NCBI GenBank assembly: GCA_030647845.1
Contig: JAUSIO010000004.1
Span: 1 to 35,152 of the forward strand
Source: a bacterium
GTDB taxonomy: Bacteria > Patescibacteriota > Minisyncoccia > Phycocordibacterales > SBAW01
Reading direction: 5' to 3'
DNA length: 35,152 bases
In this document: positions 1,045 to 35,152 of the stretch, piece by piece
How the letters are laid out: every line of letters begins with the position of its first letter
How positions within the stretch are numbered: position 1 is the first letter of the stretch
Program-made: the position numbers and the translations under genes
The notes under the pieces: model-generated
What the model saw: the letters and a program-made list of their open reading frames with translations, nothing else
Database searches by the model: none
Told to the model about the DNA's origin: nothing

Positions 1045-1935
1045 ATGGAGGTCAGTAATCTCGTTCTCTATTCAATACAGCAGCTCGGGGTGATGTTTGC
1101 CGTTGGGGCGCAAACAGTTATCCTGGTTGCATACTTGCTCGCAATCCGCAACGGCATAGTAGACGAGCAAGAAGAGCGCTTTTCAAAAGCGGTCAAGCGG
1201 GTGTTGTTTGTAGGCTTATTTTTGATTGTCATATCCGGCTTGGCGATAACCGCGCTCGAGCTTTTGGCCGCGCACCGGCCGATAGTATTCTCTCCCGCGT
1301 ATCTTTTTAAGTGGTGTTTGATTGGCATGGGGGTAGTGCTCGCGCGCGCAACATGGGGCATCTCAAGGTCGGCAGGATTACTCGAAGGCGTTGCCGGCGC
1401 TACGTGGTACGCGCTTTTTGCCGTGCATATTTTGGCACCGGTCGCCACTTGGCCGCAATTGCTGACGCTCTTTTCGGTGTGGCTCATTGTTTTTGTACTT
1501 GGCTGGACGGGGCTGGTGTTTGGACTACGCGGTAAGCGAGCAGTAGTCGAGGCTTCGGTTGCAAAAGAAAAAAATACGAAAGTACTAAAAACCATGCCTG
1601 CCGCCTGCCTGCCGGTAGGCAGGGCAAGGCAGGCGCCGGTGGTCGTACGGCCAATACAACCAACACGACCGATACAGCCGGTGGCGGCGTTTATAGCTCC
1701 AATGCCAAAAGTACTTCCTCATGTCGTGCCGGTGGTACCATTCCGCCCTACCATACCGGAGAACCTCCCCGTGTTTACAACCGACGCTCCTCTTGTGCCG
1801 CAGCCGCCCCAAGTAGCGCAGGCGGTTGTTGTCGAGCAAAAAGTGGACGACCCAAACAGCACACCAGGACTTCCTCATATCCGCGTGATGCCAAAAACCA
1901 TTGAGGAGCTACAAAAAATACTTGCACATATATGA
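1045..1935 (+). CDS. Multi-pass membrane protein with a proline-rich C-terminal tail (296 aa)
   Basis: ATG ORF with 4-5 hydrophobic helices in the first ~170 aa, then a P/V/Q-rich tail with a tandem RPIQPT/RPIQPV. TACAAT lies 6 nt upstream of the ATG. Its stop overlaps the next start (ATGA). Confidence 0.7.
   Translation: MEVSNLVLYSIQQLGVMFAVGAQTVILVAYLLAIRNGIVDEQEERFSKAVKRVLFVGLFLIVISGLAITALELLAAHRPIVFSPAYLFKWCLIGMGVVLARATWGISRSAGLLEGVAGATWYALFAVHILAPVATWPQLLTLFSVWLIVFVLGWTGLVFGLRGKRAVVEASVAKEKNTKVLKTMPAACLPVGRARQAPVVVRPIQPTRPIQPVAAFIAPMPKVLPHVVPVVPFRPTIPENLPVFTTDAPLVPQPPQVAQAVVVEQKVDDPNSTPGLPHIRVMPKTIEELQKILAHI
1596..1634. repeat. PAL-B palindromic repeat, nested/duplicated copy, in frame inside the CDS
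   Basis: GCCTGCC-GCCTGCCT-GCCGGT-AGGCAGGG-CAA-GGCAGGC, translated as ACLPVGRARQA. Same GCCTGCCT...AGGCAGGC arms as the copies at 19891, 23941, 25215 and 28098. Confidence 0.75.
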
Positions 1936-2565: not shown

Positions 2566-3567
2566 ATGGGTCTTTCAATCGGCATAGTGGGGTTGCCAAA
2601 TGTCGGAAAGTCGACTCTGTTTAACGCGCTTACCAAAAAAAGCGTGCTGGCGGCAAATTACCCATTTGCGACTATCGACCCGAGTTTAGGGGTGGTTGCG
2701 GTGCCCGACGAGCGCGTTGACAAACTAGCCGCATTTTCGAACTCGGCCAAAAAAATCCCTGCGGCGGTCGAGTTTGTCGACGTTGCGGGGCTCGTCCGCG
2801 GCGCCTCGGAGGGCGAGGGGCTCGGCAACAAGTTTCTCTCGCATATCCGCGAGGTTGACGCAATCGCGCACGTCGTGCGTGTCTTTGACAATACCAACAT
2901 CATCCATGTCGAGCAGGAGGTAAACCCCGTGCGCGACATTGAGCTTATCAATACCGAACTCGCACTAGCCGATTTAGAAACAGAAGAAAAACGCAAAGAG
3001 AAGTCCCGACGTTCCGGTAAACCGGAAGTCGGGACCCCGACCAAAGCGTCGGGGCTCTCCGATAAGCCGGTGCTCTATGTGTTAAACCGCGAGGCAGGCG
3101 GGCATAACCTCGACGAGATGCGCGACGGGCGGTGGGAGCGTTTGATGGAGTGGCTCACAGAACATAATGCGCAGTATGTTACCGTTGACGCAAATGTCGA
3201 GAGCGAATTGCGCGAACTGCACCCAGACGATAAACAACAGTTTAGGCAGGAGTATGGTGTGCTCGACGATGGCGTCAATGGTTTGATTGCCGCTGGCTAT
3301 CGACTGCTTGGGCTGATGAGTTTTTTTACCACGGGTGCTGACGAGACGCGCGCGTGGACAATCCCGCAGGGTTCAACCGCGCCCGAGGCGGGCGCGGTAA
3401 TACACACCGACTTTTTTACAAAATTTATCCGTGCCGAAGTGATTGCGTGGGATAAGCTACTCGAAGCGGGTTCCTACGCAAAAGCCCGCGAGCAAGGTCT
3501 CGTCCGCACCGAAGGTAAAGAATACATAGTAAAAGACGGCGACGTCATAGAATTCTTGCACGGGTAA
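2566..3567 (+). CDS. ychF: Redox-regulated ATPase YchF (Obg-family P-loop NTPase)
   Basis: MGLSIGIVGLPNVGKSTLFNALT (G1), ATIDP, VEFVDVAGLVRGASEGEGLGNKFL, and the C-terminal TGS-like end EGKEYIVKDGDVIEF. The track start 2557 is TTG, so I used the ATG at 2566. Confidence 0.9.
   Translation: MGLSIGIVGLPNVGKSTLFNALTKKSVLAANYPFATIDPSLGVVAVPDERVDKLAAFSNSAKKIPAAVEFVDVAGLVRGASEGEGLGNKFLSHIREVDAIAHVVRVFDNTNIIHVEQEVNPVRDIELINTELALADLETEEKRKEKSRRSGKPEVGTPTKASGLSDKPVLYVLNREAGGHNLDEMRDGRWERLMEWLTEHNAQYVTVDANVESELRELHPDDKQQFRQEYGVLDDGVNGLIAAGYRLLGLMSFFTTGADETRAWTIPQGSTAPEAGAVIHTDFFTKFIRAEVIAWDKLLEAGSYAKAREQGLVRTEGKEYIVKDGDVIEFLHG
3003..3054 (+). repeat. HP-A double-hairpin repeat, in frame inside ychF
   Basis: GTCCCGAC-G-TTCCGG-taaa-CCGGAA-GTCGGGAC, then CCCCGAC-caaagc-GTCGGGG. 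Shares an identical 27-mer with the dnaK copy. Translated ...[17 protein letters not shown]. Confidence 0.85.
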
Positions 3568-14275: not shown

Positions 14276-15121
14276 ATGTCCATACTTGTCACAAAAGCCG
14301 ATGGCACGACCGAAGCGTTTGACCAAGCAAAGTTAGAGCGCTCGCTCAAGCGCGCAGGAGCAAGCGCTGAGGTGGCGGTAGACATCGTCGAGGAAATTAC
14401 TAAAGAGTTATACAGCGGTATCACCACAAACGAGTTGTATCGGCGTGCGTTTGCTCATCTGCGCGAACACCGGCGCGGGGTGGCAGCGCGATACTCACTT
14501 AAGCGGGCGATACTCCAGTTTGGACCATCGGGTTTCCCGTTCGAAGCGTACTTGGCGGAGTTGTTTCGCGCCGAAGGATACACAGCCGAAATCGACCAAC
14601 TGGTACAAGGCGCGTGTGTCGAGCACGAAGTAGATGTCGTGATGACTAAAGAAAAAATGGTGACCTATGTTGAAGCAAAGTTCCACAATACCGCTGGGTT
14701 TAAGACCGATTTAAAAACAGTACTCTATGTCAAAGCGCGTATCGACGACATCTCCGCCGCCGCTGAAGCTTCGGCGGACGCGGCGCGCTCTACCACCGAA
14801 GGTTTGGTAGTGACTAACACCAAATTCACTTCTGTAGCGATACAGTACGCGACCTGTCAAGGGCTCTGGCTACTTGGCTGGGAATATCCACAGGAAGGGA
14901 ACCTGCACGACCGTATCGACGCCGCAAAGCTCTACCCAATAACCGCCCTCACTACACTGTCAAAGCGCGAAAAAACGGCTCTATTGAGCGAGAAAAAGGT
15001 CCTTTGTAGCGCGCTTTCGGGCGACAGCAGTGCTCTTGTGCGCGCTGGGATAGCTGGCCGCCGAGCCGATGCGGTCTTGGAGGAAGTGGGCGCATTGTGC
15101 GTCCCCGGAAAAGATATATGA
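14276..15121 (+). CDS. ATP-cone domain fused to a restriction-endonuclease-like (Mrr/PD-(D/E)xK) domain
   Basis: The N-terminus MSILVTKADGTTEAFDQAKLERSLKRAG...TTNELYRRAF fits an ATP-cone. The following part has FEAYLAELFRAEGY and ...HEVDVV...YVEAKF, which fits a D...E-x-K nuclease core. GGAGGG lies 8 nt upstream of the ATG. Confidence 0.7.
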   Translation: MSILVTKADGTTEAFDQAKLERSLKRAGASAEVAVDIVEEITKELYSGITTNELYRRAFAHLREHRRGVAARYSLKRAILQFGPSGFPFEAYLAELFRAEGYTAEIDQLVQGACVEHEVDVVMTKEKMVTYVEAKFHNTAGFKTDLKTVLYVKARIDDISAAAEASADAARSTTEGLVVTNTKFTSVAIQYATCQGLWLLGWEYPQEGNLHDRIDAAKLYPITALTTLSKREKTALLSEKKVLCSALSGDSSALVRAGIAGRRADAVLEEVGALCVPGKDI

Positions 15122-18693: not shown

Positions 18694-20751
18694 TTACCAA
18701 ATCCTGGCACGGTTTTTTTCTGTTCGAAATAGTTTGTCTCCTTTTTTTACATTGAATGCCTCGTAAAATGCGGGGAGGTTGGATGCTGGGCCGTTGACAC
18801 GCAGGGGTGCCGCGGCATGCGGGTCGGTAAACGCCTGCGTTTTTGTAAACTCCACTCGAGCCAGCTCGCGCTCTCCTTGGGCAAACCCGAGGAAGAAGCG
18901 CTGCTCGGGGGTAAATCCTGCAACTACTTTCCTGCCAGTTTTTACAAGACGCCTTTGTAGCGCGTCGTAGGCAATCGCGGCGCCGCCGAGGTCGGCGCTG
19001 TTTTCTCCCAGCGTTAGTTTGCCGTTGGCGCGCACACCGGGCACAACTTCGTACTGGTTAAACTGTCTGGTGAGTAAGTGCCCTTTTTTGACAAAGTAAG
19101 CACTATCTTTTTTGGTCCACCAACTGTGCATATTGCCGTGCGCATCAAACTTTGACCCTTGATCGTCGAAACCGTGGGTGATTTCGTGTCCGATAACCGC
19201 GCCAATAGCGCCGTAGTTAACCGCATCGTCCGCGCGCGAGTCAAAAAACGGGGGCTGCAAAATTGCGGCAGGGAAGACAATCTCGTTTAAGTTAAAATGG
19301 CAGTATGCGTTAACGGTTTGTGGCGTCATAAACCATTCGTGTCGGTTGACTGATTTTTGGAGGCGGCGCATACCGCGGCAGTGCTCAAACTCGCGGCTCC
19401 GGAGCACATTGCCAAAGTAGTCGTCGGGGCGGATTGTTAGCCCGCGGTACGTTTCCCACTGTGCAGGGTAGCCTATCTTGCGGTTCATCGCGTGCAACTT
19501 GTGTAGTGCTTTTTGTTTGGTCGCGGCGCTCATCCAATCGAGTTTTTTGATGCGCACCTCGTATGCCACAAACAGGTTGCGGACGAGCGCTTCCATTTGT
19601 TTTTTTGCGCCCTTGCTAAAATGTTTTTGGACATACCGCTTGCCGAGTGCGTCGCCAACATTGGTGTTTACCGAGCCAAGCGCGCGCCGCCAGAGCGGAC
19701 GCATTTTTTTGCTTCCCGTTAACACGGTGCCATAAAAATTAAAACTCGCGCGCGCGAACTTTTGCGAAAGGAGCGGTGCAAACGAGTTGATACAGTGCCA
19801 CTCGAGATAGATTTTCCAATCTTGGAGCGGGATGTTGTCGAACAAACGCCCCAGCCCGCGGAAAAATTTTGGCTGTGCAACCACGACCTCGCCTGCCTGC
19901 GCAGGCAGGCGTTCTGCTCCCGCGTCGAGCAGTGCAAAATACTCCCGCCAATCGATTTGAGGCAGCTCGCGCATTAACGTTGTGAGTGACTTTTTGTTGT
20001 ATGTTTTTTCGACATCGCGGGTCTCCTCTTTCGGCATCGAGATTTTTGCGAGGTGTGTTTCGATCTTCATCACTGTGCGCATTGCCTGTTCGGCTGCGGC
20101 TGGTGCAAACCCAAAAAGGCGGAGCAATTTTTTAATATGCGCCTTGTACGCCTCACGCACACGCTTTTGCTCGGTGGCGTGGCTCAAGTAATACTCGCGG
20201 TCGGGCATGCCTAAACCATCTTGCACCAAGTGGAGCAGGTAGCGGTTGCTGTTTTTTGCATCTTGGTCGAGCTCCAACTCCCAAAAAGCCAAACCGCCGA
20301 GGCGGTGCATACGCGCAGCATGCCCAACTATTTCTTTTTTTGACGTGATGTTTTGGATGTCTTTGCGCCACGCTAAAAGCGGGTGGTGACCTAGCTTGTC
20401 GCGCCGCGCTGTGTCCATCGCAGAGCGATACATATCTGCAATAAGTTGCTCGGGCGTTCCTTTTTTAAAATGTTTTCCCCGACGCTTCGGTCGGGGTCCC
20501 GACCCCGAGGGGCGTCGGGATTGCAGTAAATCCTCAACAATATTCTTGAGTTGTTGCTCGGTGGTGTAGCGCAACATAGTAAAAGTACCCCAACGCGCTT
20601 CAGCCGGAGGAATTTTGTTTTTGCGAATCCAGCCACCGTTTGCATAGTTATAAAAGTCATCCTGTGGCCGCACCTTCCTATCAAGATTCCCCACGTCAAA
20701 TCCCCAGTATTTCGGGTCTCTTTTGATGGCTTTCCTACGAAAATTTTGCAT
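18694..20751 (-). CDS. M13 family zinc metallopeptidase (PepO/endothelin-converting-enzyme-like)
   Basis: VRPQDDFYNYANGGW at the N-terminus, VIGHEITHGFDDQG (HExxH), GENSADLGG, and the C-terminal ...NRARIW. I chose the start at 20751 (MQNFRRK...); the longer track start at 20826 lies in a TA repeat. Confidence 0.9.
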   Translation of the reverse strand: MQNFRRKAIKRDPKYWGFDVGNLDRKVRPQDDFYNYANGGWIRKNKIPPAEARWGTFTMLRYTTEQQLKNIVEDLLQSRRPSGSGPRPKRRGKHFKKGTPEQLIADMYRSAMDTARRDKLGHHPLLAWRKDIQNITSKKEIVGHAARMHRLGGLAFWELELDQDAKNSNRYLLHLVQDGLGMPDREYYLSHATEQKRVREAYKAHIKKLLRLFGFAPAAAEQAMRTVMKIETHLAKISMPKEETRDVEKTYNKKSLTTLMRELPQIDWREYFALLDAGAERLPAQAGEVVVAQPKFFRGLGRLFDNIPLQDWKIYLEWHCINSFAPLLSQKFARASFNFYGTVLTGSKKMRPLWRRALGSVNTNVGDALGKRYVQKHFSKGAKKQMEALVRNLFVAYEVRIKKLDWMSAATKQKALHKLHAMNRKIGYPAQWETYRGLTIRPDDYFGNVLRSREFEHCRGMRRLQKSVNRHEWFMTPQTVNAYCHFNLNEIVFPAAILQPPFFDSRADDAVNYGAIGAVIGHEITHGFDDQGSKFDAHGNMHSWWTKKDSAYFVKKGHLLTRQFNQYEVVPGVRANGKLTLGENSADLGGAAIAYDALQRRLVKTGRKVVAGFTPEQRFFLGFAQGERELARVEFTKTQAFTDPHAAAPLRVNGPASNLPAFYEAFNVKKGDKLFRTEKNRARIW
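19891..19910. repeat. PAL-B 20-nt perfect palindrome in frame inside the M13 peptidase
   Basis: GCCTGCCTGC/GCAGGCAGGC, translated on the minus strand as RLPAQAG. Confidence 0.8.
20477..20520 (-). repeat. HP-A double-hairpin repeat in frame inside the M13 peptidase
   Basis: The reverse complement TCCCGACGCCCCTCGGGGTCGGGACCCCGACCGAAGCGTCGGGG is nearly identical to the dnaK copy. Translated [16 protein letters not shown]. Confidence 0.85.
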
Positions 20752-20824
20752 ATAAAGCAGATAATACCGCAAACTCTGAAGAAAGCGAAAAACGCAATCT
20801 TCCTCGAGCCCTTGACAAAATTCC

Positions 20825-20837
20825 ATATATATATATA
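20825..20837. repeat. (AT)6A dinucleotide microsatellite in a divergent promoter region
   Basis: ATATATATATATA, read directly from the sequence. Confidence 0.8.
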
Positions 20838-22252: not shown

Positions 22253-24106
22253 ATGACGCTTGATGAGGTGCGGTCAAAGTATTTAGCATTTTTTGCCGAG
22301 AGGGGACACATCGTGATTCCTTCGGCATCTTTAGTGCCGCAGAATGACCCTACCACTTTGTTTACCGGCTCGGGGATGCAACCGCTCCTGCCGTATTTGT
22401 TGGGGCGTGACCACCCCGGGGGCAAGCGCTTGGTTGACTCGCAAAAATGCTTCCGCTCGATGGACATCGAGGAGGTGGGCGACAACCGCCACACCACGTT
22501 TTTCGAGATGCTCGGCAACTGGTCCTTGGGTGATTATTTTAAACAAGAGCAACTGACTTATTTTTTTACGTTTCTTACAGAAGAGATACAGATTCCGAAA
22601 GAGCGCCTGTGGGTAACGTGTTTTGAGGGCGACGAAACTTTGCACTTGCCAAAAGATACCGAGTCGGCAGAGATTTGGAAAAAGCTCGGCATACCCGAGC
22701 ATCATATTCGTTTTTACGGCTCGAAAAAGAATTGGTGGTCACGCTCGGGCATACCGGAGGCGATGCCTGTAGGCGAGCCGGGCGGCCCAGACTCGGAAGT
22801 GTTTTACGATTTTGGTCAAGAGCTGAAGTTACACGAAAGTTCTGAATTTAAGAATGAAGTGTGCAACCCCAACTGCGACTGCGGCCGGTTCCTCGAAATC
22901 GGCAACTCGGTGTTTATGCAGTATGTCAAGAACCCTTCGACAGGCTCAGGGCGGGATAGTTTTAGCAAACTACCCCGACAAAACGTCGACTTCGGCGGTG
23001 GGTTGGAGCGCATTGCCGCAGTTTCTGAAAACGAACCAGATATTTTTAAAGTTGCACATACATCAATCATCGAACAGTTAGAAAAAATAACCGGTAAAAC
23101 ATACGCTGAAAATATACGAACCTTTCGAATTATTGCAGACCATGTTAAAGCCGCGGTGTTTCTTGTCGCCGATGGCGTTAAGCCCTCAAACACCGACCAA
23201 GGATATTTTGTACGGCGGCTATTGCGCCGCGCGGTGCGCTACGCTGACAAACTCGGCATTACACAGAGCGGTTTAGCTACTGTGGTTGAGGCGACGGCCC
23301 GGATGTATGTACACTCGTATCCAGAAGTGCTTGCACAAGCGGCGGATATTCAGAAAATAATTCTCACAGAAGAAGCACAGTTTCGCAAAACGCTCGCGCG
23401 CGGCATCAAAGAGTTCGAGAGGTTTGCAGGGCAAGGCATGCTCTCGGCGCACGACGCGTTCCAACTCGTGACGACCTACGGCTTCCCGCTCGAACTAATT
23501 TTGGAAGAAGCGGGGGAAAAAGGGATTAAACAAATCGACATCGAAGGGTTTAAAGAATTGTTAAAGGAGCATCAACAGCTGAGCCGCGCCGGGTCGGAAC
23601 AAAAGTTTAAGGGCGGTTTGGCAGACACAGCAGAGAAGACCGTGCGTTTGCACACAGCGCACCACTTGTTGTTGAAGGCACTACAAATAGTGCTCGGTCC
23701 GGATGTAAAACAACGCGGGAGCAACATCACGCAAGAGCGTTTGCGCATCGACTTTTCCTACGGCGCAAAAATGACCAACGGACAGATTTCCAAAGTCGAA
23801 AAGATTGTAAACGAAAAAATAAAAGAGGATATCCCAGTTGTACGCACCGAGATGTCAAAGGACGAAGCCGAGAAACTCGGAGCCGAACACGAGTTTGGCG
23901 CCAAATATCCCGACCGCGTGTCGGTCTACTCGGTTGGACCCCTGCCTACCGGCAGGCAGGACTCGAGACCTTTTTCCATCGAGTTTTGCGGCGGGCCGCA
24001 CACTGGAAGTACTGGAGAGCTGGCAACTGGAGAATTGAAATTTAAAATCAAAAAAGAAGAAGCGGTCGCCCAAGGTATCCGCCGGATAAAAGCAGTGTTG
24101 GAGTAA
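22253..24106 (+). CDS. alaS: Alanine--tRNA ligase, short form (617 aa, no C-Ala/DHHA1 domain)
   Basis: FTGSGMQPL, FEMLGNWSLGDYFK, editing-domain motifs HTAHHLL and CGGPHTGSTGEL. The ORF stops shortly after the editing domain. Confidence 0.92.
   Translation: MTLDEVRSKYLAFFAERGHIVIPSASLVPQNDPTTLFTGSGMQPLLPYLLGRDHPGGKRLVDSQKCFRSMDIEEVGDNRHTTFFEMLGNWSLGDYFKQEQLTYFFTFLTEEIQIPKERLWVTCFEGDETLHLPKDTESAEIWKKLGIPEHHIRFYGSKKNWWSRSGIPEAMPVGEPGGPDSEVFYDFGQELKLHESSEFKNEVCNPNCDCGRFLEIGNSVFMQYVKNPSTGSGRDSFSKLPRQNVDFGGGLERIAAVSENEPDIFKVAHTSIIEQLEKITGKTYAENIRTFRIIADHVKAAVFLVADGVKPSNTDQGYFVRRLLRRAVRYADKLGITQSGLATVVEATARMYVHSYPEVLAQAADIQKIILTEEAQFRKTLARGIKEFERFAGQGMLSAHDAFQLVTTYGFPLELILEEAGEKGIKQIDIEGFKELLKEHQQLSRAGSEQKFKGGLADTAEKTVRLHTAHHLLLKALQIVLGPDVKQRGSNITQERLRIDFSYGAKMTNGQISKVEKIVNEKIKEDIPVVRTEMSKDEAEKLGAEHEFGAKYPDRVSVYSVGPLPTGRQDSRPFSIEFCGGPHTGSTGELATGELKFKIKKEEAVAQGIRRIKAVLE
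23941..23960. repeat. PAL-B palindromic repeat in frame inside alaS
   Basis: CCTGCCTACCGGCAGGCAGG, one mismatch from a perfect palindrome. Translated LPTGRQ. Confidence 0.8.
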
Positions 24107-25075: not shown

Positions 25076-26389
25076 ATGCAAGACATGATTCCTCCAGCTC
25101 CACGCGACGGGCGCTCTATCCGAAATATCCCGGTGTCAAACAAACCCCAACGCCAAATACAGCGTCGGCAAGAGGAGCTGGAGGAAAAAGAGTTTCTCGA
25201 CACACCTCTGCCCCGCCTGCCTACCGGACAGGCAGGCCCAATAAGACCACGGCGCTCCCGTCGCGTACTGTGGTTTGTGCTTGGGGTGGCACTTGTGTGC
25301 GCGACCGCGAGTATTCTTTTGGCGACCATTTTTGCGGGTGCGAGTATAACGCTGTATCCAAAAACACAAATCGTGACGCCTCCGGCGAGCATACTAGCAG
25401 AGCCAGACGCACCTTCTGGTGTATTGCCATACCAAACTATGAGCATCACGCGGTCGGCGAGCACCACGGTTGCGGCCTCGGGCACACAGCACGTGTCAAA
25501 AACGGCAACCGGTGTTATTACGATTTTTAATGGCTACAGCACCGCGAGCCAAAAATTAGTAGCAACCACGCGTTTTGAGGCCCCCGATGGCAAAATCTAC
25601 CGCATCCGCGAGTTAGTCACGGTCCCCGGTGCAACCAAAAAGCAAGACGGTACGCTCACACCCGGTTCCACCACAGCCACCGTATACGCTAGTGTCGCAG
25701 GAGCGGACTATAACCTCGCGCAAGCAACACATTTTACCCTCCCCGGTTTTAAAGGCGACCCGCAGTACAGCAAATTCTACGCCCAATCACAAGGCGCAGT
25801 AAGCGGCGGTTTTGTGGGTGAGCAGGCGGCAGTTGCTCCGGCTGATATGGTAAAAGCGCAACAGTCATTGCAAAGCCAGTTGAGTGCCGCGGTTGCGTCC
25901 GCCTCGACTGCAGATGTCCCAACCGGTTTTTTGCCGGTTGCTAATTCTCTCGTCACTACATACGCTACCATCGCACAAACACAAGGGACTGGCACTACTG
26001 TTATACTTTCGCAAAGTGCAAACGGTCAGGGCGCGATTGTGCGCGAGAGCGACCTTGCGGCGGCAATCGCCGCACAAGTGGTGAGCGGCTACCGTGGCGA
26101 GGTAGTTGTGTTTGTCGACCCGTCAAAAATTACTATTTCGGTGCCAAGTGGCACAAAACCAACCGGAGCGCTCACGCTTGCACTCGCTGGCACGCCGACC
26201 TTAGTATGGCAGTTTGATGCCGATGCGATAAAACAAGCTCTGCTTGGTAAGAAAAAAGTAGAATTTGAAGCTATCATAAAAACGTTCCAACCGGGTGTCG
26301 ACCGTGCCACGCTCACCGTCCGCCCGTTTTGGCAGTCGTCCCTCCCAACCGACCCGAGTAAACTAACCGTCACGGCCACGCAACAATAA
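25076..26389 (+). CDS. Membrane-anchored extracytoplasmic protein (437 aa), family uncertain
   Basis: ATG ORF. Basic N-terminus, TM helix LWFVLGVALVCATASILLATIF, then a long T/S/A-rich beta-type domain. Possible baseplate-J-like resemblance, from memory only. Confidence 0.65.
   Translation: MQDMIPPAPRDGRSIRNIPVSNKPQRQIQRRQEELEEKEFLDTPLPRLPTGQAGPIRPRRSRRVLWFVLGVALVCATASILLATIFAGASITLYPKTQIVTPPASILAEPDAPSGVLPYQTMSITRSASTTVAASGTQHVSKTATGVITIFNGYSTASQKLVATTRFEAPDGKIYRIRELVTVPGATKKQDGTLTPGSTTATVYASVAGADYNLAQATHFTLPGFKGDPQYSKFYAQSQGAVSGGFVGEQAAVAPADMVKAQQSLQSQLSAAVASASTADVPTGFLPVANSLVTTYATIAQTQGTGTTVILSQSANGQGAIVRESDLAAAIAAQVVSGYRGEVVVFVDPSKITISVPSGTKPTGALTLALAGTPTLVWQFDADAIKQALLGKKKVEFEAIIKTFQPGVDRATLTVRPFWQSSLPTDPSKLTVTATQQ
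25215..25237. repeat. PAL-B palindromic repeat in frame inside the CDS
   Basis: GCCTGCCT-ACCGGAC-AGGCAGGC, translated LPTGQAG. Confidence 0.8.
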
Positions 26390-27867: not shown

Positions 27868-28494
27868 ATGTTAGTAGGACCAAAATACAAAATCTGTAAA
27901 CGCTTGGGCGCCTCGGTATTCGAAAAATGCCAGACGCAAAAGTTTCAACTAGTCGAGGCGCGGGCGCCTCGACGCAGCCGCCCCAAGCGAGGCGGGAGCG
28001 GCGACTATGGCGTGCAACTGCTCGAAAAGCAAAAAGCGCGTTTTACCTACGGTCTTTCCGAAAGCCAGTTTGCGCGCTATGTCCACGAAGCAATGGACCT
28101 GCCTGCCGGCAGGCAGGGAAAAAAGACTAGTGCGGAAGGCCTTGTCTCGCGCCTCGAGTCGCGTTTGGACAATGTGGTGTGGCGCGCGGGCCTCACCAAA
28201 ACGCGCCGTGCGGCGCGCCAACTTGTCTCGCACGGGCATATCACGGTGGGTGGGCGCCGTATGACTATCCCTTCCTACTGCGCCCAGGTGGGTGACGTAG
28301 TTGCCGTGCGCCCCGAGAGTCGCCAGAGTGCACTGTTTTTGGGTCGCGCAGAAGCCGTGCTCGAGACAAAAACACCGGCATGGATGGAAATCGCTGACGG
28401 AGGCATGTCCATTACCATCGCCGCTGTCCCAACATTGCCGGAACTTGAGCTCCCCTTTAACCCCGCGGTCATCATTCAATTTTATAGTCGTTAA
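27868..28494 (+). CDS. rpsD: 30S ribosomal protein S4
   Basis: GPKYKICKRLG, LESRLDNVVWRAGL, ARQLVSHGHITVGGRRMTIPSY (S4 domain). Confidence 0.95.
   Translation: MLVGPKYKICKRLGASVFEKCQTQKFQLVEARAPRRSRPKRGGSGDYGVQLLEKQKARFTYGLSESQFARYVHEAMDLPAGRQGKKTSAEGLVSRLESRLDNVVWRAGLTKTRRAARQLVSHGHITVGGRRMTIPSYCAQVGDVVAVRPESRQSALFLGRAEAVLETKTPAWMEIADGGMSITIAAVPTLPELELPFNPAVIIQFYSR
28098..28117. repeat. PAL-B 20-nt perfect palindrome in frame inside rpsD
   Basis: CCTGCCTGCC/GGCAGGCAGG, translated LPAGRQ. Confidence 0.85.
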
Positions 28495-28522: not shown

Positions 28523-29494
28523 ATGATGGAATATTCAATAACATTGCCAAGCAAGCCGCGCATCGCGAGCGAAGAAGAGTACTCGGGAACGTACGAAATA
28601 GATGGTCTCTACCCGGGCTACGGGCATACACTCGGCAACTCACTGCGCCGCATTATCCTCTCGTCCTTGCCGGGTGCGGCCGTGACCTCGGTCAAAATCG
28701 ACGGTATCGAACACGAGTTCTCAACGATGAGCGGCGTGCGCGAAGATGTAGTAACGATTTTGCTCAACCTCAAAAAACTACGCTTCGAGATGCTCACGCA
28801 AGAGCCACAAATGGTAGCGCTCAAAATAAAAGGCCCCAAAAAAGTAAGCGGTAGTGACCTCAAACTTCCCGGTCAGGTTCGCTTGCTCAACCCCAACTCC
28901 TACTTGTGCGAATTGACAGATAAAGATGCATCGATTGATGCAGAGTTCCGTGTTGAGCGTGGCTTGGGCTATGTGCCACGCGAAGCACTCAAAAAAGAGC
29001 GCGTTGATATCGGCGAAATTTCTGTTGATGCAATTTTCTCGCCTATCCGCCGCGTCAACTACGAGGTAGAAAATATGCGCGTCGGTGACCGCACCGACTT
29101 TAACCGCCTGCGTATCACGATAGAGACCGACGGCACCATAGAGCCGCGCGCAGCACTCGAACAGTCTATCGAAGTGATGATCACCCAGCTCAAAGCGATT
29201 GTCGGCTTCCATGAGGAAGAGTTGCCATCAGCACATGTAGCTCCTGTGAGTGTGGTTGCGGTCGAAGCAGGCATCACAGCCGCAGAAGCTTCGGCCGAGG
29301 CACTCAAAACGCGCATCGAGGATCTCGGCTTTTCGAGCCGGACTATCTCGGCACTCGAGAGGGCAAATATACGCACGGTCGGCGGCTTGGCACGCAAGAA
29401 GGAGGCCGACTTACTTGAAATAGAAGGTCTTGGCCCCAAGGCGATACAAGAGGTCAAGCGCGCGCTGGCGAACTTCGGGATACTGCTGAAATAA
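28523..29494 (+). CDS. rpoA: DNA-directed RNA polymerase alpha subunit
   Basis: GYGHTLGNSLRRIILSSLPGAAVTSVKIDG, plus a C-terminal domain (LGFSSRTISALERANIRTVGGL). Confidence 0.95.
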   Translation: MMEYSITLPSKPRIASEEEYSGTYEIDGLYPGYGHTLGNSLRRIILSSLPGAAVTSVKIDGIEHEFSTMSGVREDVVTILLNLKKLRFEMLTQEPQMVALKIKGPKKVSGSDLKLPGQVRLLNPNSYLCELTDKDASIDAEFRVERGLGYVPREALKKERVDIGEISVDAIFSPIRRVNYEVENMRVGDRTDFNRLRITIETDGTIEPRAALEQSIEVMITQLKAIVGFHEEELPSAHVAPVSVVAVEAGITAAEASAEALKTRIEDLGFSSRTISALERANIRTVGGLARKKEADLLEIEGLGPKAIQEVKRALANFGILLK

Positions 29495-31355: not shown

Positions 31356-33323
31356 ATGGCAAAAATACTTGGTATAGACTTGGGCACAACCAACTCCGCG
31401 ATAGCGGTAATGCGCGGCGGTGAAGCACAGATATTGGAAAATGCCGAAGGTGCGCGCACGATGCCCTCGGTCGTGGCGGCTAGCAAAACCGGCGAAAAGT
31501 TGGTTGGGCTTATTGCGCGCCGGCAAGGTGTTACAAACCCCAAAAATACTATCTACCAGATTAAACGCTTTATTGGACATAACTTTGACGAGCCGCTGGT
31601 GCAAAAAGACAAAGCGGCAGTGCCCTATGAGATGCGTAAGTCACAAAACGGTGGTATTGAGGTAGAGATGTCTTCGACATGGTATCGGCCGGAAGAAATT
31701 TCGGCAATGATACTTGGCAAGCTCAAAGCCGATGCCGAAAAGCGCTTAGGCGAGCCAATTACCGAGGCAGTCATAACAGTGCCGGCATACTTTAACGACG
31801 CACAGCGCGCCGCGACCCGCGATGCGGGCAAAATCGCCGGCCTCGATGTTAAGCGCATCATCAACGAGCCGACTGCGGCGGCGCTTGCCTATGGATTTGG
31901 ACAATCCCGACGCCCCGAAGGGGTCGGGACCCCGACCAAAGCGTCGGGGAAAAAAGATGAGAAAATTATTGTCTTCGATTTTGGTGGCGGCACGTTTGAC
32001 ATTTCGGTGCTCGAAGTTGGGGACGACGTGATAGAGGTCAAGTCAACTGATGGCGACGCGCACCTTGGTGGTAAAGACCTCGACCAAAAAATAATCGACT
32101 GGCTCGCGTCCGAGTATCAAAAAGAAAGCGGCATCGACGTGCGCCTTGATGCACTCGGTCGCCAACGGCTCGACGAAGCGGCGGAAAAGGCAAAAATCGA
32201 GCTTTCGACCGCGGTTGATACCGAGATAAACATCCCGTTTATCACCTCAGACAGCTCGGGGCCGCGTCACTTGCTTATCAAAATGTCGCGCGCAAAACTC
32301 GAAGAACTCTCGGCCGAGTTTATCGAACGCGCGATGGCAATTACCAAACGCGCAATGGAGGCGTCGCCGTTTAAGGTTGCCGACATCAACGAAGTTATTT
32401 TGGTTGGCGGGCAAACCCGTATGCCGGCCTTACAGGCGGCGGTGGAGAAGTACTTCAACAAAAAGCCAAACATGAGCGTGAACCCCGACGAGGTCGTGGC
32501 AATCGGCGCAGCGATACAAGGCGGTATATTGGGTGGCGAGGTGCGCGATGTACTTTTGCTCGACGTTATCCCGCTGTCTTTGGGTATCGAGACCATGGGT
32601 GGCGTCGCAACAAAGTTAATTGAGCGCAATACCACCATCCCGACCAGCCGCTCGCAAAATTTCTCAACTGCGGCTGACAACCAAACCAGCGTAGAGATAC
32701 ATATCACGCAAGGCGAGCGTGCGATGGCCTCGGACAATAAATCGCTCGGGCGCTTTGTCTTGGACGGTATCCCGCCTGCGCCGCGCGGCTTGCCACAAAT
32801 CGAAGTAACATTTGATGTCGATACAAACGGCATCCTCAAGGTCTTGGCGAAAGACAAAGCGACCAACAAAGAGCAGAGCATACGCATCGAAGCGTCGTCG
32901 GGGCTCTCGGACCAGGACATTGAGCGGATGCGCAAAGATGCCGAGGCAAACGCCGACAGCGACAAAAAGAAGGTCGAGTTGGCCGAAGTGCGCAATGTGG
33001 CTGACCAGAGGTTGTACGCCGCGCGCAAAGCGCTTGCCGATGATACTGACAAAAAAATCCCAGCAGAATTGATAACCGCAATAAACGAAAAAATTACCGC
33101 GCTTGAAACCGCAAAAAGCAAAGATGACGCGCCGACCACACGCGCCGCGGCCGAAGACCTAGGCCGTGAACTCTCAAAAGTGTACGAAGCGGTACAGAAA
33201 AGTACTTCGCCGGATTCGACAAGCTCACCGCAAGCCGAAGGTACTGGAAGTGCAGAAACTCCGCCAACAACCGAGACTCCACCAACTGGCGAACAACCTT
33301 CTCCTGATAGTGAGGTAAAATAA
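31356..33323 (+). CDS. dnaK: Molecular chaperone DnaK (Hsp70)
   Basis: [59 protein letters not shown]. Confidence 0.97.
31905..31949 (+). repeat. HP-A double-hairpin repeat in frame inside dnaK (45 nt)
   Basis: TCCCGAC-G-CCCC-gaa-GGGG-TCGGGA, then CCCCGAC-caaagc-GTCGGGG. Translated [15 protein letters not shown], between AAALAYGF and [12 protein letters not shown]. Confidence 0.9.
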
Positions 33324-33328
33324 AATCG

Positions 33329-35113
33329 ATGCAGAAACAAGAGAAAAAATCGGCCACCGCCGGTGCGGTGTTCCGTGTGTATATACAACATGTAGTCAAA
33401 TATCCTTGGCGTATTTTCTTCGTGTTTTTGGGCGCGATTATTGTACAAGCAGGGACGCTTGCTGCGCCGCTTTTTTTGCGAGAATTCTTCAACCTCCTCG
33501 CCTCGGGCACACCGAGCGCGGCGGTTGTGAACCAATTGTTTTTACTACTCGCTCTTGTGGGCGCAATGTATCTTCTCGAGTGGCTCGGCAGGCGCATACA
33601 GGAGATAAGCAATCTATATCTAGCCGCACTCGTGATGGCCGACCTCCTTGGGACCGCTTTTGGCTATCTTATTAACCACTCGTATAACTTCTTTACTTCA
33701 AACTTCGCGGGCTCGCTCACGAGCAAGGTCAGTCGGTTTGGTCGTTCGTTCGAAGCAATTTTTGATAGCATTCTGTTGCAATTTTTCCCCACGTTTTTGT
33801 TTGTCACAGGTAGTGTCGTCATCTTATTTTTACGCAACCACACGCTCGGCATAGCCCTTGGGGTATGGGTTATTGTGTTTTTGTGGTTCCAAATAACCGT
33901 GGCGCGCATACGCCAGCCGATACGCAAAGCACGCGCTGAGGCCGATACCAAAATAACCGCAACGCTTGCGGACGCAATAGGCAACCAAAATACCATCGCG
34001 CTTTTTTCCGGCGCCGAAGGCGAAAAAGTGTTATTCAAAAAAGTGATAGCTGCATGGCAAACAATAACACTCAAATTGTGGAACGCCGACAACCGCATTT
34101 GGGGTGGTATTGGTTTATTTATGATTGTTATTGAGGTCGGGCTCTTGGGCGGTGGCGTATTCTACTGGCAGAAAGGGTTGTTTACGATAGGCGACTTTGT
34201 GCTTATCCAAGCGTATTTGCTCACTACGTTTGACCGATTGGTTTCTATCAACCGCGAACTGCGGCGGTTTTACGATGCCATTGCCGATGCTGGCGAGATG
34301 GTCGCTATTTTGCAAATGCCGCACGAAATTAAGGACGCCGTGGACGCGAAACCGCTTGCTGTTGCGGATGCTAACATTAGTTTTGAAAATATTACTTTTT
34401 CTTTCAATCCGGACCAACCGATACTTGAGGATTTTTCTCTCGCAATCCCCGGCGGGCAAAAAGTTGCGTTAGTGGGTCCCTCGGGCGCGGGGAAGTCGAC
34501 GATTACAAAATTACTTTTAAGACTGTTTGACGTTAAAGGCGGCACGGTCGAGATAGACGGGCAAAATATCGCGAGTGTTACGCAAAACAGCGTGCGCGAC
34601 GCTATTGCCTTTGTGCCGCAAGAGCCGATACTCTTCCACCGCACGTTGATGGAAAACATCCGCTACGGTAGGCGGCAGGCGAGCGACGACGAGGTTTTGG
34701 ACGCCGCACGCAAAGCACACTGCGACAAGTTTATTTCTGCCTTGCCGGAAAAATATAACACCTTTGTCGGCGAGCGCGGCATCAAACTCTCAGGCGGCGA
34801 GCGCCAACGGGTGGCTATCGCACGCGCGATACTCAAAAACTCGCCCATTTTGGTCTTGGACGAGGCAACATCGTCGCTCGACTCCGAGTCGGAGGCGCTC
34901 ATACAAGACGCACTTAAAACCCTGATGGAAGGGAAGACGGTAATCGTCATAGCGCACCGGCTCTCGACGATTATGCGGATGGACCGCATTGTGGTGCTGC
35001 AAGACGGTGTCATTGTCGCCGACGGCACGCACGCAGAGCTACTCGAACATAAAGGCCTCTACCACAAACTCTGGAGCATCCAAGCTGGTGGATTTTTACT
35101 CGATGATGAGTAG
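33329..35113 (+). CDS. ABC transporter, fused permease/ATP-binding exporter (MsbA/type I exporter-like)
   Basis: Six TM helices in the N-terminal half. Walker [10 protein letters not shown], signature LSGGERQR, Walker [11 protein letters not shown]-loop IAHRL. Confidence 0.92.
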
Positions 35114-35152
35114 CCCCGACGAACAAGATTGTCGGGGTCCCGACCGAAGCGT
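35114..35152 (-). repeat. HP-A double-hairpin repeat, intergenic copy truncated by the window end
   Basis: CCCCGAC-gaacaagatt-GTCGGGG, then TCCCGAC-cgaagc-GT.... Contains the core GTCGGGGTCCCGAC. Starts right after the ABC transporter stop and may act as its terminator. Confidence 0.7.

What the first reader, a model, noticed from the sequence alone, without database searches (positions are those of the whole stretch)
31905..31949. HP-A: a double-hairpin repeat (core GTCGGGACCCCGAC) inserted in frame in dnaK, ychF and the M13 peptidase, plus one intergenic copy
There are four copies: 31905..31949 (dnaK), 3003..3054 (ychF), 20477..20520 (M13 peptidase, on its coding minus strand) and 35114..35152 (3' of the ABC transporter, cut by the window end). 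Each copy is two adjacent hairpins sharing a 14-nt core: TCCCGAC-G-[variable stem/loop]-(G)TCGGGA, then CCCCGAC-[6-10 nt loop]-GTCGGGG. The ychF and dnaK copies share an identical 27-mer (GTCGGGACCCCGACCAAAGCGTCGGGG), read in the same frame as VGTPTKASG in two unrelated proteins. The peptidase copy is nearly identical to the dnaK copy at the DNA level. Its first loop is 1 nt shorter, so its second half is read in another frame ([11 protein letters not shown]). All three genic copies have the same orientation relative to the coding strand and leave the ORFs open. In DnaK the insert lies between AAALAYGF and [12 protein letters not shown], where E. coli DnaK has about 8 residues, so it is a surface loop of the nucleotide-binding domain. 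This is the signature of a selfish hairpin element colonising essential genes, as known for Rickettsia palindromic elements. I am not aware of it being described for this kind of genome.
Basis: partly seen in the sequence, partly recalled or inferred. Interest (0 to 1): 0.78.

Follow-up and report, generated by a model that had tools for sequence, protein, structure and literature searches.

The report
In-frame double-hairpin repeat in CPR genes
A roughly 40-base DNA repeat made of two small hairpins sits in frame inside essential genes (dnaK, ychF and about 30 other gene families) and between genes in many ultrasmall CPR/Patescibacteria genomes; this parallels the palindromic elements of Rickettsia and I found no description of it.

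Summary
The window is one whole 35,152-nt contig of a Candidatus Adlerbacteria-like CPR bacterium. It holds four copies of a double hairpin, YCCCGAC-G-(variable stem/loop)-GTCGGGR followed by YCCCGAC-CRAAGC-GTCGGGR. Three copies lie in frame in dnaK, ychF and an M13 peptidase. One directly follows the stop codon of an ABC transporter gene and is cut by the contig end.

Orthologue comparison shows insertions. 112 of 118 close DnaK relatives have an 11-residue loop, and the window has 15 more residues, which is exactly the 45-nt element. At least three separate lineages carry an element in this loop. ychF, the peptidase and the ABC gene end also have filled and empty alleles.

Of about 120 distinct copies, 41% lie inside long ORFs that Pfam identifies as housekeeping genes. 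None breaks a reading frame. One frame (..RR..VG.PT[E/K]ASG) dominates, 25 of 32. The stems covary.

My best reading is a very short REP/BIME-like or MITE-like mobile palindromic element that is tolerated in surface loops. The enzyme that moves it was not found. Recurrent use of the same sites and partial gene duplications beside some copies remain unexplained.

It is a new variant of a known kind (RPE-like). Interest 0.72.

The parts
31905..31949 (+). HP-A copy in dnaK, 45 nt: TCCCGAC-G-CCCCGAAGGGG-TCGGGA then CCCCGAC-CAAAGC-GTCGGGG. It is read as [15 protein letters not shown].
   Evidence: The insertion is exactly +15 aa relative to 112 of 118 close orthologues. It aligns to the E. coli DnaK loop 181-192 and is a low-confidence coil in the AF2 model.
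3004..3054 (+). HP-A copy in ychF, 51 nt. Hairpin 1 has a longer inner stem (TTCCGG-TAAA-CCGGAA). It is read as [17 protein letters not shown].
   Evidence: It lies where the YchF coiled-coil domain is reduced. Relatives have an 11-aa empty linker, a decayed copy (P0122/L187) or another variant (P0198/L189).
20477..20520 (-). HP-A copy in the M13 peptidase gene, 44 nt. It is read as [15 protein letters not shown], a different frame in hairpin 2.
   Evidence: A second M13 peptidase (L115, 53% identical) carries an element in the same region in the commoner frame.
35114..35152 (+). HP-A copy immediately 3' of the ABC transporter stop codon, truncated by the contig end: CCCCGAC-GAACAAGATT-GTCGGGG then TCCCGAC-CGAAGC-GT...
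   Evidence: An orthologous filled site exists in L127 and an empty site in L066. The contig length equals the window length.
31356..33323 (+). dnaK, host gene
2566..3567 (+). ychF, host gene. Its product is identical to the NCBI MAG protein P0121.
18694..20826 (-). M13 (PepO-like) peptidase, host gene. The start codon is uncertain.
   Evidence: The family is assigned from its 53%-identical full-length alignment to L115, which Pfam identifies as Peptidase_M13_N + Peptidase_M13; the window protein was not itself scanned.
33329..35113 (+). ABC transporter (ABC_membrane + ABC_tran). Its TAG stop abuts copy 4.

Best explanation
HP-A is a very short (37-58 nt) non-autonomous palindromic repeat element that is widespread in CPR/Patescibacteria.

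Anatomy (shown):
- The unit is a REP-like hairpin with a 7-bp stem, YCCCGAC/GTCGGGR, and one unpaired G next to the 5' arm.
- The usual element is two such units in inverted orientation, as in a BIME.
- One unit has a variable inner stem and loop. The other has the conserved loop CRAAGC.

Insertion (copies are shown to be insertions; the mechanism is inferred):
- New copies appear at short A-rich sites of the form WAR^, especially TAG^ and AAR^. No target-site duplication is detectable.
- I infer insertion by a hairpin-recognising enzyme supplied in trans, possibly an HUH/Y1-type transposase. None was found.
- This site preference would explain three observed locations: directly after stop codons, at TAG^CTCAG in tRNA D-arms, and in lysine/glutamate-rich surface loops of proteins.

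Fate inside genes (translation is inferred from the biases; the decay and compensatory changes are observed):
- Only copies that keep the reading frame, contain no stop codon and sit in tolerant loops survive.
- These copies are translated, mostly as ..RR..VG.PT[E/K]ASG.
- They then either decay slowly or change by compensatory substitutions.
For: Insertion polymorphism:
- DnaK has 112 empty sites against 6 filled ones among 118 orthologues of 78-89% identity.
- The window's nearest DnaK relatives (92% identical) are empty.
- Three filled lineages are each nested among empty ones.
- ychF and the ABC gene end show the same pattern.

Repeat character:
- An identical 27-mer occurs in two unrelated genes of the window.
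- An identical 42-mer occurs in ychF and dnaK contigs of a second lineage.
- At least 120 metagenome loci with GC of 0.34-0.57 carry the element.
- 12 loci of named CPR genomes carry it, from Saccharibacteria, Paceibacterota, Nomurabacteria and Kaiserbacteria.

Genuine host genes:
- Pfam identifies RF1/2, GyrA, GyrB, PPDK, H+-PPase, FBA, RecG, Ile/Leu-tRNA synthetases, LigA, RpoD, KsgA, MurB, TsaD, MiaA and RecR among others.

Selection on genic copies:
- 41% of copies lie in long ORFs, against 69% of random points (p=2e-10).
- The dominant frame accounts for 25 of 32 copies (p=3e-7).
- None of 122 copies breaks a frame.

Structure:
- The closing pair of each stem covaries: C-G 63 and T-A 51 in hairpin 1, T-A 67 and C-G 48 in hairpin 2.
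- The inner stems of hairpin 1 differ in sequence but stay complementary.
- Doubly mutated arms are compensatory.

Flanks:
- Position -2 is A in 70% of copies and position -1 is G or A in 89%. TAG, AAA and AAG are the commonest upstream triplets.
- Comparing filled and intact tRNA sequences gives no target-site duplication.

Decay: the orthologous ychF copy in L187 has begun to degenerate.
Against: - No transposase or other recurrent candidate enzyme was found in about 1 Mb of flanking DNA. A crude HUH/Y1 motif search was negative. The genes that recur next to copies are housekeeping genes.
- At 37-58 nt the element is shorter than any transposable unit I know, and it has no target-site duplication.
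- The same sites are occupied in divergent lineages: DnaK 3 times, YchF 3 times, plus GyrA, RF, M13 peptidase, the ABC gene end and the rplL 3' end. Copies are more alike within a lineage than between lineages at the same site. Simple random transposition does not predict this. It would also fit concerted evolution or transfer of alleles by recombination.
- The 18-nt hairpin is perfectly conserved across CPR classes with very different GC content. That would also fit a conserved function.
Confidence: 0.6

Rival explanations
1. The hairpin is a functional, sequence-specific signal. Candidates are a binding site for a CPR-wide protein, an mRNA 3'-end stabiliser or processing site, or a DNA-uptake/recombination signal. 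It would spread and be maintained mainly by homologous recombination of host-gene alleles between lineages, not by transposition.
For: - The 18-nt hairpin is perfectly conserved in genomes of GC 0.34-0.57 and in different CPR classes.
- Many copies sit 1-15 nt after stop codons, including after rplL and the ABC gene in several lineages.
- Orthologous sites are occupied recurrently.
- In L170 a duplicate of the last 13 rplL codons beside the element differs from the resident copy at 9 positions, all synonymous. That looks like a fragment of a foreign element-bearing allele.
- Partial tRNA copies carrying the element lie next to intact tRNAs.
- Stem changes are compensatory.
Against: - Copies are clearly length insertions, not motifs built up by substitution.
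- No U-tract follows the hairpins; the downstream flank is A-rich. They are therefore not canonical terminators, and in L111 a canonical terminator lies further downstream.
- Density is low, about 1 per 9 kb in the window. The CCCGAC hexamer outside the elements occurs 14 times, against about 8.6 expected from window length over 4^6 (my own arithmetic), so it is not clearly enriched.
- An orthologous genic copy decays.
- Copies are depleted in genes.
Confidence: 0.22
2. The genic copies are intervening sequences removed from the RNA (intron-like) or from the protein, so the host proteins are not altered.
For: - CPR genomes are known to carry unusual insertions in rRNA genes (my own knowledge).
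- Copies also lie inside tRNA-like sequences at D-arm position 10/11.
- One host gene in the sample (gyrB, L118) also carries an intein.
Against: - If removal did not depend on frame, about two thirds of genic copies should break the frame or contain stops. None of 122 does. One reading frame is strongly preferred, 25 of 32.
- The tRNA copies that carry the element are partial and sit beside intact tRNAs.
- No Rfam intron or ribozyme model matches the element.
Confidence: 0.04
3. The segments are ancestral protein loops whose palindromy is incidental, or they are assembly artefacts.
For: The contig ends inside a copy, so the repeat does disturb assembly.
Against: - 112 of 118 close DnaK orthologues lack the segment.
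- The same nucleotide sequence occurs in unrelated genes and between genes.
- It is found in independent assemblies from JGI, ENA and NCBI, always in frame.
Confidence: 0.02

Closest known systems
Rickettsia palindromic elements (RPE; Ogata et al. 2000, cited from my own knowledge; RPE papers were listed but not read in full)
   Same: - A palindromic repeat family in small, reduced genomes.
- Copies are inserted in frame into conserved, often essential genes as well as between genes.
- Orthologues show presence/absence polymorphism.
- Inserts lie in surface loops.
- The reading frame is biased.
- No transposase is known.
   Different: - 37-58 nt, against roughly 100-150 bp.
- A two-hairpin, BIME-like build with a 7-bp conserved stem.
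- Found across several CPR classes, not one genus.
- No sequence relationship was established.
- A strong preference for TAG^/AAR^ flanks, including tRNA D-arms and stop codons.
REP/BIME elements of Proteobacteria with their RAYT (Y1/HUH) transposases
   Same: - GC-rich imperfect palindromes of 20-40 nt.
- Units are paired in inverted orientation.
- Copies often lie just after stop codons.
- TAG(C) is a frequent 5' neighbour, reminiscent of the REP GTAG.
- No target-site duplication.
   Different: - 41% of copies lie inside genes, in frame.
- No RAYT gene was found near any copy.
- The copy number per genome appears modest.
- The host phylum is different.
Prokaryotic MITEs that insert in frame, for example the Coxiella burnetii MITEs (PMC5896051; MITE review PMC10969869; both seen only as titles and abstracts)
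   Same: - A short non-autonomous repeat with inverted-repeat termini.
- It can extend or alter ORFs.
   Different: - No target-site duplication and no related full-length insertion sequence.
- Several times shorter than typical MITEs.
DNA uptake sequences of Neisseria and Pasteurellaceae (my own knowledge)
   Same: - A short conserved motif shared across a whole clade of naturally competent bacteria.
- It often occurs as inverted pairs after genes.
- It is also found in genes, in preferred frames.
- Spread by recombination is plausible.
   Different: - HP-A copies are insertions of about 40 nt, not substitutions.
- Density is about ten times lower.
- The bare hexamer arms are not clearly over-represented outside the elements.

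Membership tests
Rickettsia palindromic elements (RPE) | Repeat of about 100-150 bp belonging to one of the RPE sequence families of Rickettsia | tested here: not met
   The elements are 37-58 nt. The host is a CPR bacterium close to Ca. Adlerbacteria. No sequence comparison with RPE consensus sequences was made.
Rickettsia palindromic elements (RPE) | In-frame insertion in conserved ORFs, with presence/absence among orthologues | tested here: met
Rickettsia palindromic elements (RPE) | The segment is retained in the mRNA and the protein | not testable with these tools
   Supported only indirectly: 0 of 122 copies breaks a frame and the reading frame is biased.
REP/BIME | GC-rich imperfect palindrome of 20-40 nt, often paired in inverted orientation | tested here: met
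   The hairpin units are 18-30 nt. The unpaired G in hairpin 1 and the matching unpaired C in hairpin 2 show that the two units are inverted relative to each other. Single units also occur.
REP/BIME | Essentially extragenic location | tested here: not met
   49 of 120 copies lie inside long ORFs of genuine genes.
REP/BIME | Conserved GTAG at the 5' end | tested here: inconclusive
   TAG is the commonest upstream triplet, in 24 of 117 copies. In the tRNA cases it belongs to the target, and most copies lack it.
REP/BIME | Cognate RAYT (Y1 transposase) gene flanked by REPs | tested here: inconclusive
   None was seen in about 1 Mb of flanks by a crude HUH...Y motif search, by Pfam scans of recurrent or flanked ORFs, or by ORF clustering. 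Whole genomes were not available.
MITE | Terminal inverted repeats | tested here: met
   The termini YCCCGAC...GTCGGGR are inverted repeats of 7 nt.
MITE | Target-site duplication | tested here: not met
   Filled tRNA fragments compared with intact tRNAs give TAG|element|CTCAG against TAGCTCAG, so at most 1 ambiguous nt is duplicated. No general flank repeat was found.
MITE | Parent insertion sequence with the same ends | tested here: inconclusive
   None lies between paired copies in the loci held.
Intrinsic transcription terminator | GC-rich hairpin followed by a U-tract | tested here: not met
   The stable hairpins are present, but the downstream flank is A-rich, not T-rich. In L111 a separate canonical terminator follows.
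DNA uptake sequence (DUS/USS) | A short motif at about 1 per kb, arising by substitution, over-represented as a bare motif | tested here: not met
   There are 4 elements in 35 kb. CCCGAC occurs 14 times outside the elements, against about 8.6 expected from window length over 4^6 (my own arithmetic). Copies are length insertions.
Rfam RNA families | Match to any curated covariance model | tested here: not met
   Only tRNAs and one group I intron matched, and nothing matched on the element itself.

The most novel reading that the evidence does not exclude
HP-A may not be merely selfish DNA. It may be a CPR-wide hairpin signal that moves between lineages together with pieces of host genes, by transformation and recombination between filled and empty alleles. 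That would explain three otherwise odd observations:
- the same loops of DnaK, YchF, GyrA and other proteins are occupied again and again;
- copies are identical within a lineage but differ between lineages;
- some copies are flanked by partial gene or tRNA duplicates that differ from the resident copy only at synonymous sites.

If this is right, HP-A would be a marker, or even a driver, of gene-fragment exchange among ultrasmall bacteria.
Probability: 0.2. Interest if true: 0.85.

Novelty: new variant of a known kind. Interest (0 to 1): 0.72.

Why it matters
CPR/Patescibacteria have about 1-Mb streamlined genomes and are thought to carry few repeats.

What is new here:
- One ~40-nt element writes an extra 12-19 residues into DnaK, gyrase, release factor, sigma-70, several tRNA synthetases, DNA ligase and other core proteins, across several CPR classes.
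- This extends the 'selfish DNA in protein-coding genes' phenomenon of Rickettsia to a second, unrelated group of reduced-genome bacteria.
- It offers a source of lineage-specific protein loops.
- It explains some contig breaks and odd insertions in CPR assemblies and alignments.

What it makes testable:
- The element is short, sharply defined and abundant in public metagenomes. Insertion polymorphism, mobilising enzymes and possible recombination-mediated spread can therefore be tested directly with existing data.
- The peptide VG[VTIA]PT[EK]ASG is a ready search key for metaproteomes.

Tried and rejected
- Exact look-up of the window's DnaK and ABC transporter proteins found nothing on record. 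YchF later identified the contig.
- My genome-collection pattern allowed only a 1-nt spacer between the hairpins. It therefore missed all copies with the 14-nt core, including the window's own type. About 45 of its 61 hits were chance matches in GC-rich Actinobacteria.
- The viral contig scan gave 0 hits.
- Rfam has no family for the element.
- In-silico excision of the element restored a tRNA in only one locus (L135). The other tRNA-associated copies are partial fragments beside intact tRNAs, not interrupted functional tRNAs.
- The search for a mobilising enzyme was negative: HUH/Y1 motif regex, clustering of 3,143 flanking ORFs, and Pfam on recurrent or element-flanked ORFs.
- The one candidate frame-breaking copy (L146) turned out to be the ruvC tail followed by a separate ruvA gene.
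A tandem-peptide workaround was judged unable to reach significance, so I did not run it.
- Literature searches for CPR palindromic elements, CPR MITEs and the exact sequences found nothing.
- I rejected the terminator idea because there is no T-tract, and the ancestral-loop and artefact readings.
Full report
**Observation.**
- dnaK: 31905-31949, 45 nt.
- ychF: 3004-3054, 51 nt.
- M13 peptidase: 20477-20520 on the minus (coding) strand, 44 nt.
- Fourth copy: 35114-35152, beginning one base after the TAG stop of an ABC transporter ORF and running off the window.

The 14-mer core occurs 4 times against 0.17 expected. The hairpin CCCGAC-N4-20-GTCGGG occurs 7 times against 0.01 expected, and every occurrence lies inside these copies. 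ychF and dnaK share an identical 27-mer that is read as VGTPTKASG in both proteins. The peptidase copy is read as [15 protein letters not shown]. Each copy folds into the two predicted hairpins at -31 to -38 kcal/mol, with z-scores of -3.7 to -5.2.

**Source.** The closest DnaK relatives (78-89% identity) include proteins named Candidatus Adlerbacteria and Kaiserbacteria. The window's YchF is an NCBI MAG protein whose contig is 35,152 nt long. The window is therefore a whole contig of a Parcubacteria-type CPR bacterium, and the assembly stopped inside copy 4.

**The copies are insertions.**
- DnaK: 112 of 118 close orthologues have an 11-residue loop, F[DN]KKK[DN]EK... The window has 26 residues, and the 15 extra ones are exactly the 45-nt element.
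- Six other DnaK proteins carry a different variant (CCCCGAC-GCGAGGCG-GTCGGGG then TCCCGAC-CGAAGC-GTCGGGA) a few bases away in the same A-rich codons. The metagenome contig L086 carries a third variant.
- The window's nearest DnaK relatives (92% identical) are empty. The three filled lineages are not each other's closest relatives.
- Against E. coli DnaK the insert falls in the loop L181-V192, just before the DLGGGTFD phosphate-binding motif. In an AlphaFold model (mean pLDDT 67.5) residues 185-198 have pLDDT below 50 and no secondary structure.
- YchF: the insert lies where the coiled-coil domain is reduced. Relatives have a full 62-residue domain, an 11-residue linker, a partly decayed copy at the same place (P0122/L187: CCCGAT-TGAAAC-GTCGGG), or another variant (P0198).
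- M13 peptidase: a 53%-identical peptidase (L115) has an element in the same region in another frame.
- ABC gene end: L127 has an element at the orthologous place, with the stop codon inside the hairpin loop. The close relative L066 has none.

**Distribution.**
It still returned 12 loci from genomes labelled Saccharibacteria, Paceibacterota, Nomurabacteria, Kaiserbacteria or Patescibacteria. Their loops include GCTTYG, the reverse complement of CRAAGC. The remaining hits were mostly chance matches in GC-rich Actinobacteria, plus a few other MAGs.
- Viral contigs gave none.
- No Rfam family matches the element.

**Genic copies.**
- The 122 matched copies correspond to about 120 distinct elements (two are nested matches). 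49 of these lie in long stop-free ORFs.
- Pfam shows these are real, mostly housekeeping genes: RF1/2, GyrA (twice, same site), GyrB, PPDK/PEP synthase, thioredoxin-reductase-like, a TPP enzyme, H+-pyrophosphatase, class II aldolase, PfkB kinase, glycosyltransferases, RecG, Ile- and Leu/Val-type tRNA synthetases, a DHH protein, MurB, TsaD, KsgA (twice), RpoD, MiaA, a Mur ligase, LigA and RecR.
- Random points in the same loci fall in such ORFs 69% of the time, against 41% for the element (p=2e-10).
- In the commoner orientation, 25 of 32 copies are read as ..RR..VG.PT[E/K]ASG (p=3e-7).
- No copy splits a gene into two frames. The one candidate is the ruvC tail followed by ruvA.
- Together these results argue that genic copies are translated and filtered by selection, not spliced out.

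**Anatomy across the family.**
- Each stem is 7 bp. The closing pair covaries: C-G 63 and T-A 51 in hairpin 1, T-A 67 and C-G 48 in hairpin 2.
- Hairpin 1 is CCCGAC, an unpaired G, a variable inner stem and loop (from GTAAA to 27 nt, with different but self-complementary sequences), then GTCGGG.
- Hairpin 2 read on the other strand is CCCGAC-G-CTTYG-GTCGGG. The element is therefore two like units in inverted orientation, as in a BIME.
- Single units also occur.
- Degenerate copies with two arm changes are all compensatory: GCCGAC/GTCGGC, TCCGAC/GTCGGA and CCCGAT/ATCGGG.

**Flanks.**
- Upstream position -2 is A in 70% of copies and -1 is G or A in 89%. TAG (24), AAA (17) and AAG (16) are the commonest triplets. 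Position +2 is A or T in 92%.
- Many intergenic copies sit 1-15 nt after a stop codon on one side or the other.
- About 11 copies sit at TAG^CTCAG, position 10/11 of the D-arm, of a partial tRNA copy next to an intact tRNA of the same kind. Comparing these with the intact tRNAs shows no target-site duplication.
- I infer a preference for WAR^ sites. That would explain why stop codons, tRNA D-arms and lysine-rich loops are hit.

**Unexplained features.**
- In a second lineage from the same samples, the ychF and dnaK contigs carry 42/42 identical copies. These are the same two genes as in the window, but a different variant.
- In L111 and L170 the rplL stop codon is followed by 8-11 nt resembling the preceding codons, then the element, then a second copy of the last 13 codons plus stop.
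- In L170 the nine differences between the two copies are all synonymous third-position changes, and the element is open in that frame. The distal piece looks like a fragment of a diverged, element-bearing allele joined after the resident stop codon.
- Both features hint at recombination between filled and empty alleles, or at concerted evolution.

**Mechanism.**
- Best reading (0.6): a very short non-autonomous palindromic mobile element, inserted without duplication at short A-rich sites by an unidentified hairpin-recognising enzyme. In genes it survives only when in frame in tolerant loops.
- Shown: insertion polymorphism, repeat identity across unrelated genes, structure conservation, flank bias, frame and orientation bias, depletion in genes.
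- Inferred: mobility itself, the enzyme, and translation of the genic copies.
- No transposase was found in about 1 Mb of flanks.
- Main rival (0.22): a functional hairpin signal spread by recombination.
- RNA or protein excision (0.04), and an ancestral loop or artefact (0.02), are contradicted by the data.

**Comparison and novelty.**
- Functionally this matches the Rickettsia palindromic elements. It is not a member of that family, because the length, build and host all differ.
- It resembles REP/BIME in unit size, inverted pairing and the lack of duplication, but it fails the extragenic criterion, and no RAYT was seen.
- It fails the MITE criterion of target-site duplication.
- Full-text searches for CPR palindromic elements or MITEs and for the exact sequences returned nothing.
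- I rate it a new variant of a known kind, interest 0.72.

Noticed in passing
window 1604-1623, 19890-19911, 23941-23960, 25215-25237, 28098-28117: A second palindrome family, (G)CCTGCC...GGCAGG(C), with five copies, all inside ORFs. The copy in rpsD (28098-28117, read as DLPAGRQG) coincides with a 5-residue length excess over the close relative L065. It is probably another in-frame palindromic insertion.
   Followed up: partly
window 7558-7590; also 3376-3398, 27952-27973, 14759-14781, 29279-29301: Further perfect or near-perfect GC-rich palindromes inside coding regions. They include a 33-nt perfect palindrome in the Leu-tRNA synthetase gene and GCCGC.GAAGCTTCGGC.G in two genes. The one at 27952-27973 in rpsD shows no length change against L065.
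   Followed up: no
window 5130-8069: The Leu-tRNA synthetase has a NUDIX domain inserted at residues 420-514. In related loci an Ile-tRNA synthetase carries a histidine-phosphatase domain (L139), RecG carries a PD-(D/E)XK nuclease domain (L138), and GyrB carries an intein (L118).
   Followed up: no
L075, L083, L107, L108, L110, L113, L117, L135, L136, L157, L183 (positions): The element is inserted at TAG^CTCAG (D-arm position 10/11) of partial tRNA copies that lie 10-270 nt from an intact tRNA of the same anticodon. L107 and L080 have two hairpin insertions in one tRNA-like copy. In L135, deleting the element restores a tRNA-Asn.
   Followed up: partly
L111 1396-1541 and L170 1639-1776: The element after rplL is flanked by a duplicate of the last 13 codons plus stop. 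In L170 all 9 differences between the copies are synonymous, which suggests a fragment of a foreign element-bearing allele.
   Followed up: partly
L189/L190 10421-10462 and L062 1131-1172 / L064 2698-2739: In contigs from the same samples, the ychF and dnaK copies are 42/42 nt identical. These are the same two host genes as in the window, but with a different element variant.
   Followed up: partly
window 35114-35152 (contig end): The contig, which is the whole window, ends inside a copy. Several metagenome contigs also end within 100 nt of a copy (for example L088, L104, L124). The repeat probably breaks short-read assemblies.
   Followed up: no
L083 4070-4307: A group I intron (Rfam RF00028, 51.8 bits) lies in a tRNA-rich region next to an element copy.
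   Followed up: no
L038 5336-5377: A typical copy with loop GTTTCA lies on a contig of a MAG labelled Gammaproteobacteria. Either the contig was mis-binned or this is a rare occurrence outside CPR.
   Followed up: no
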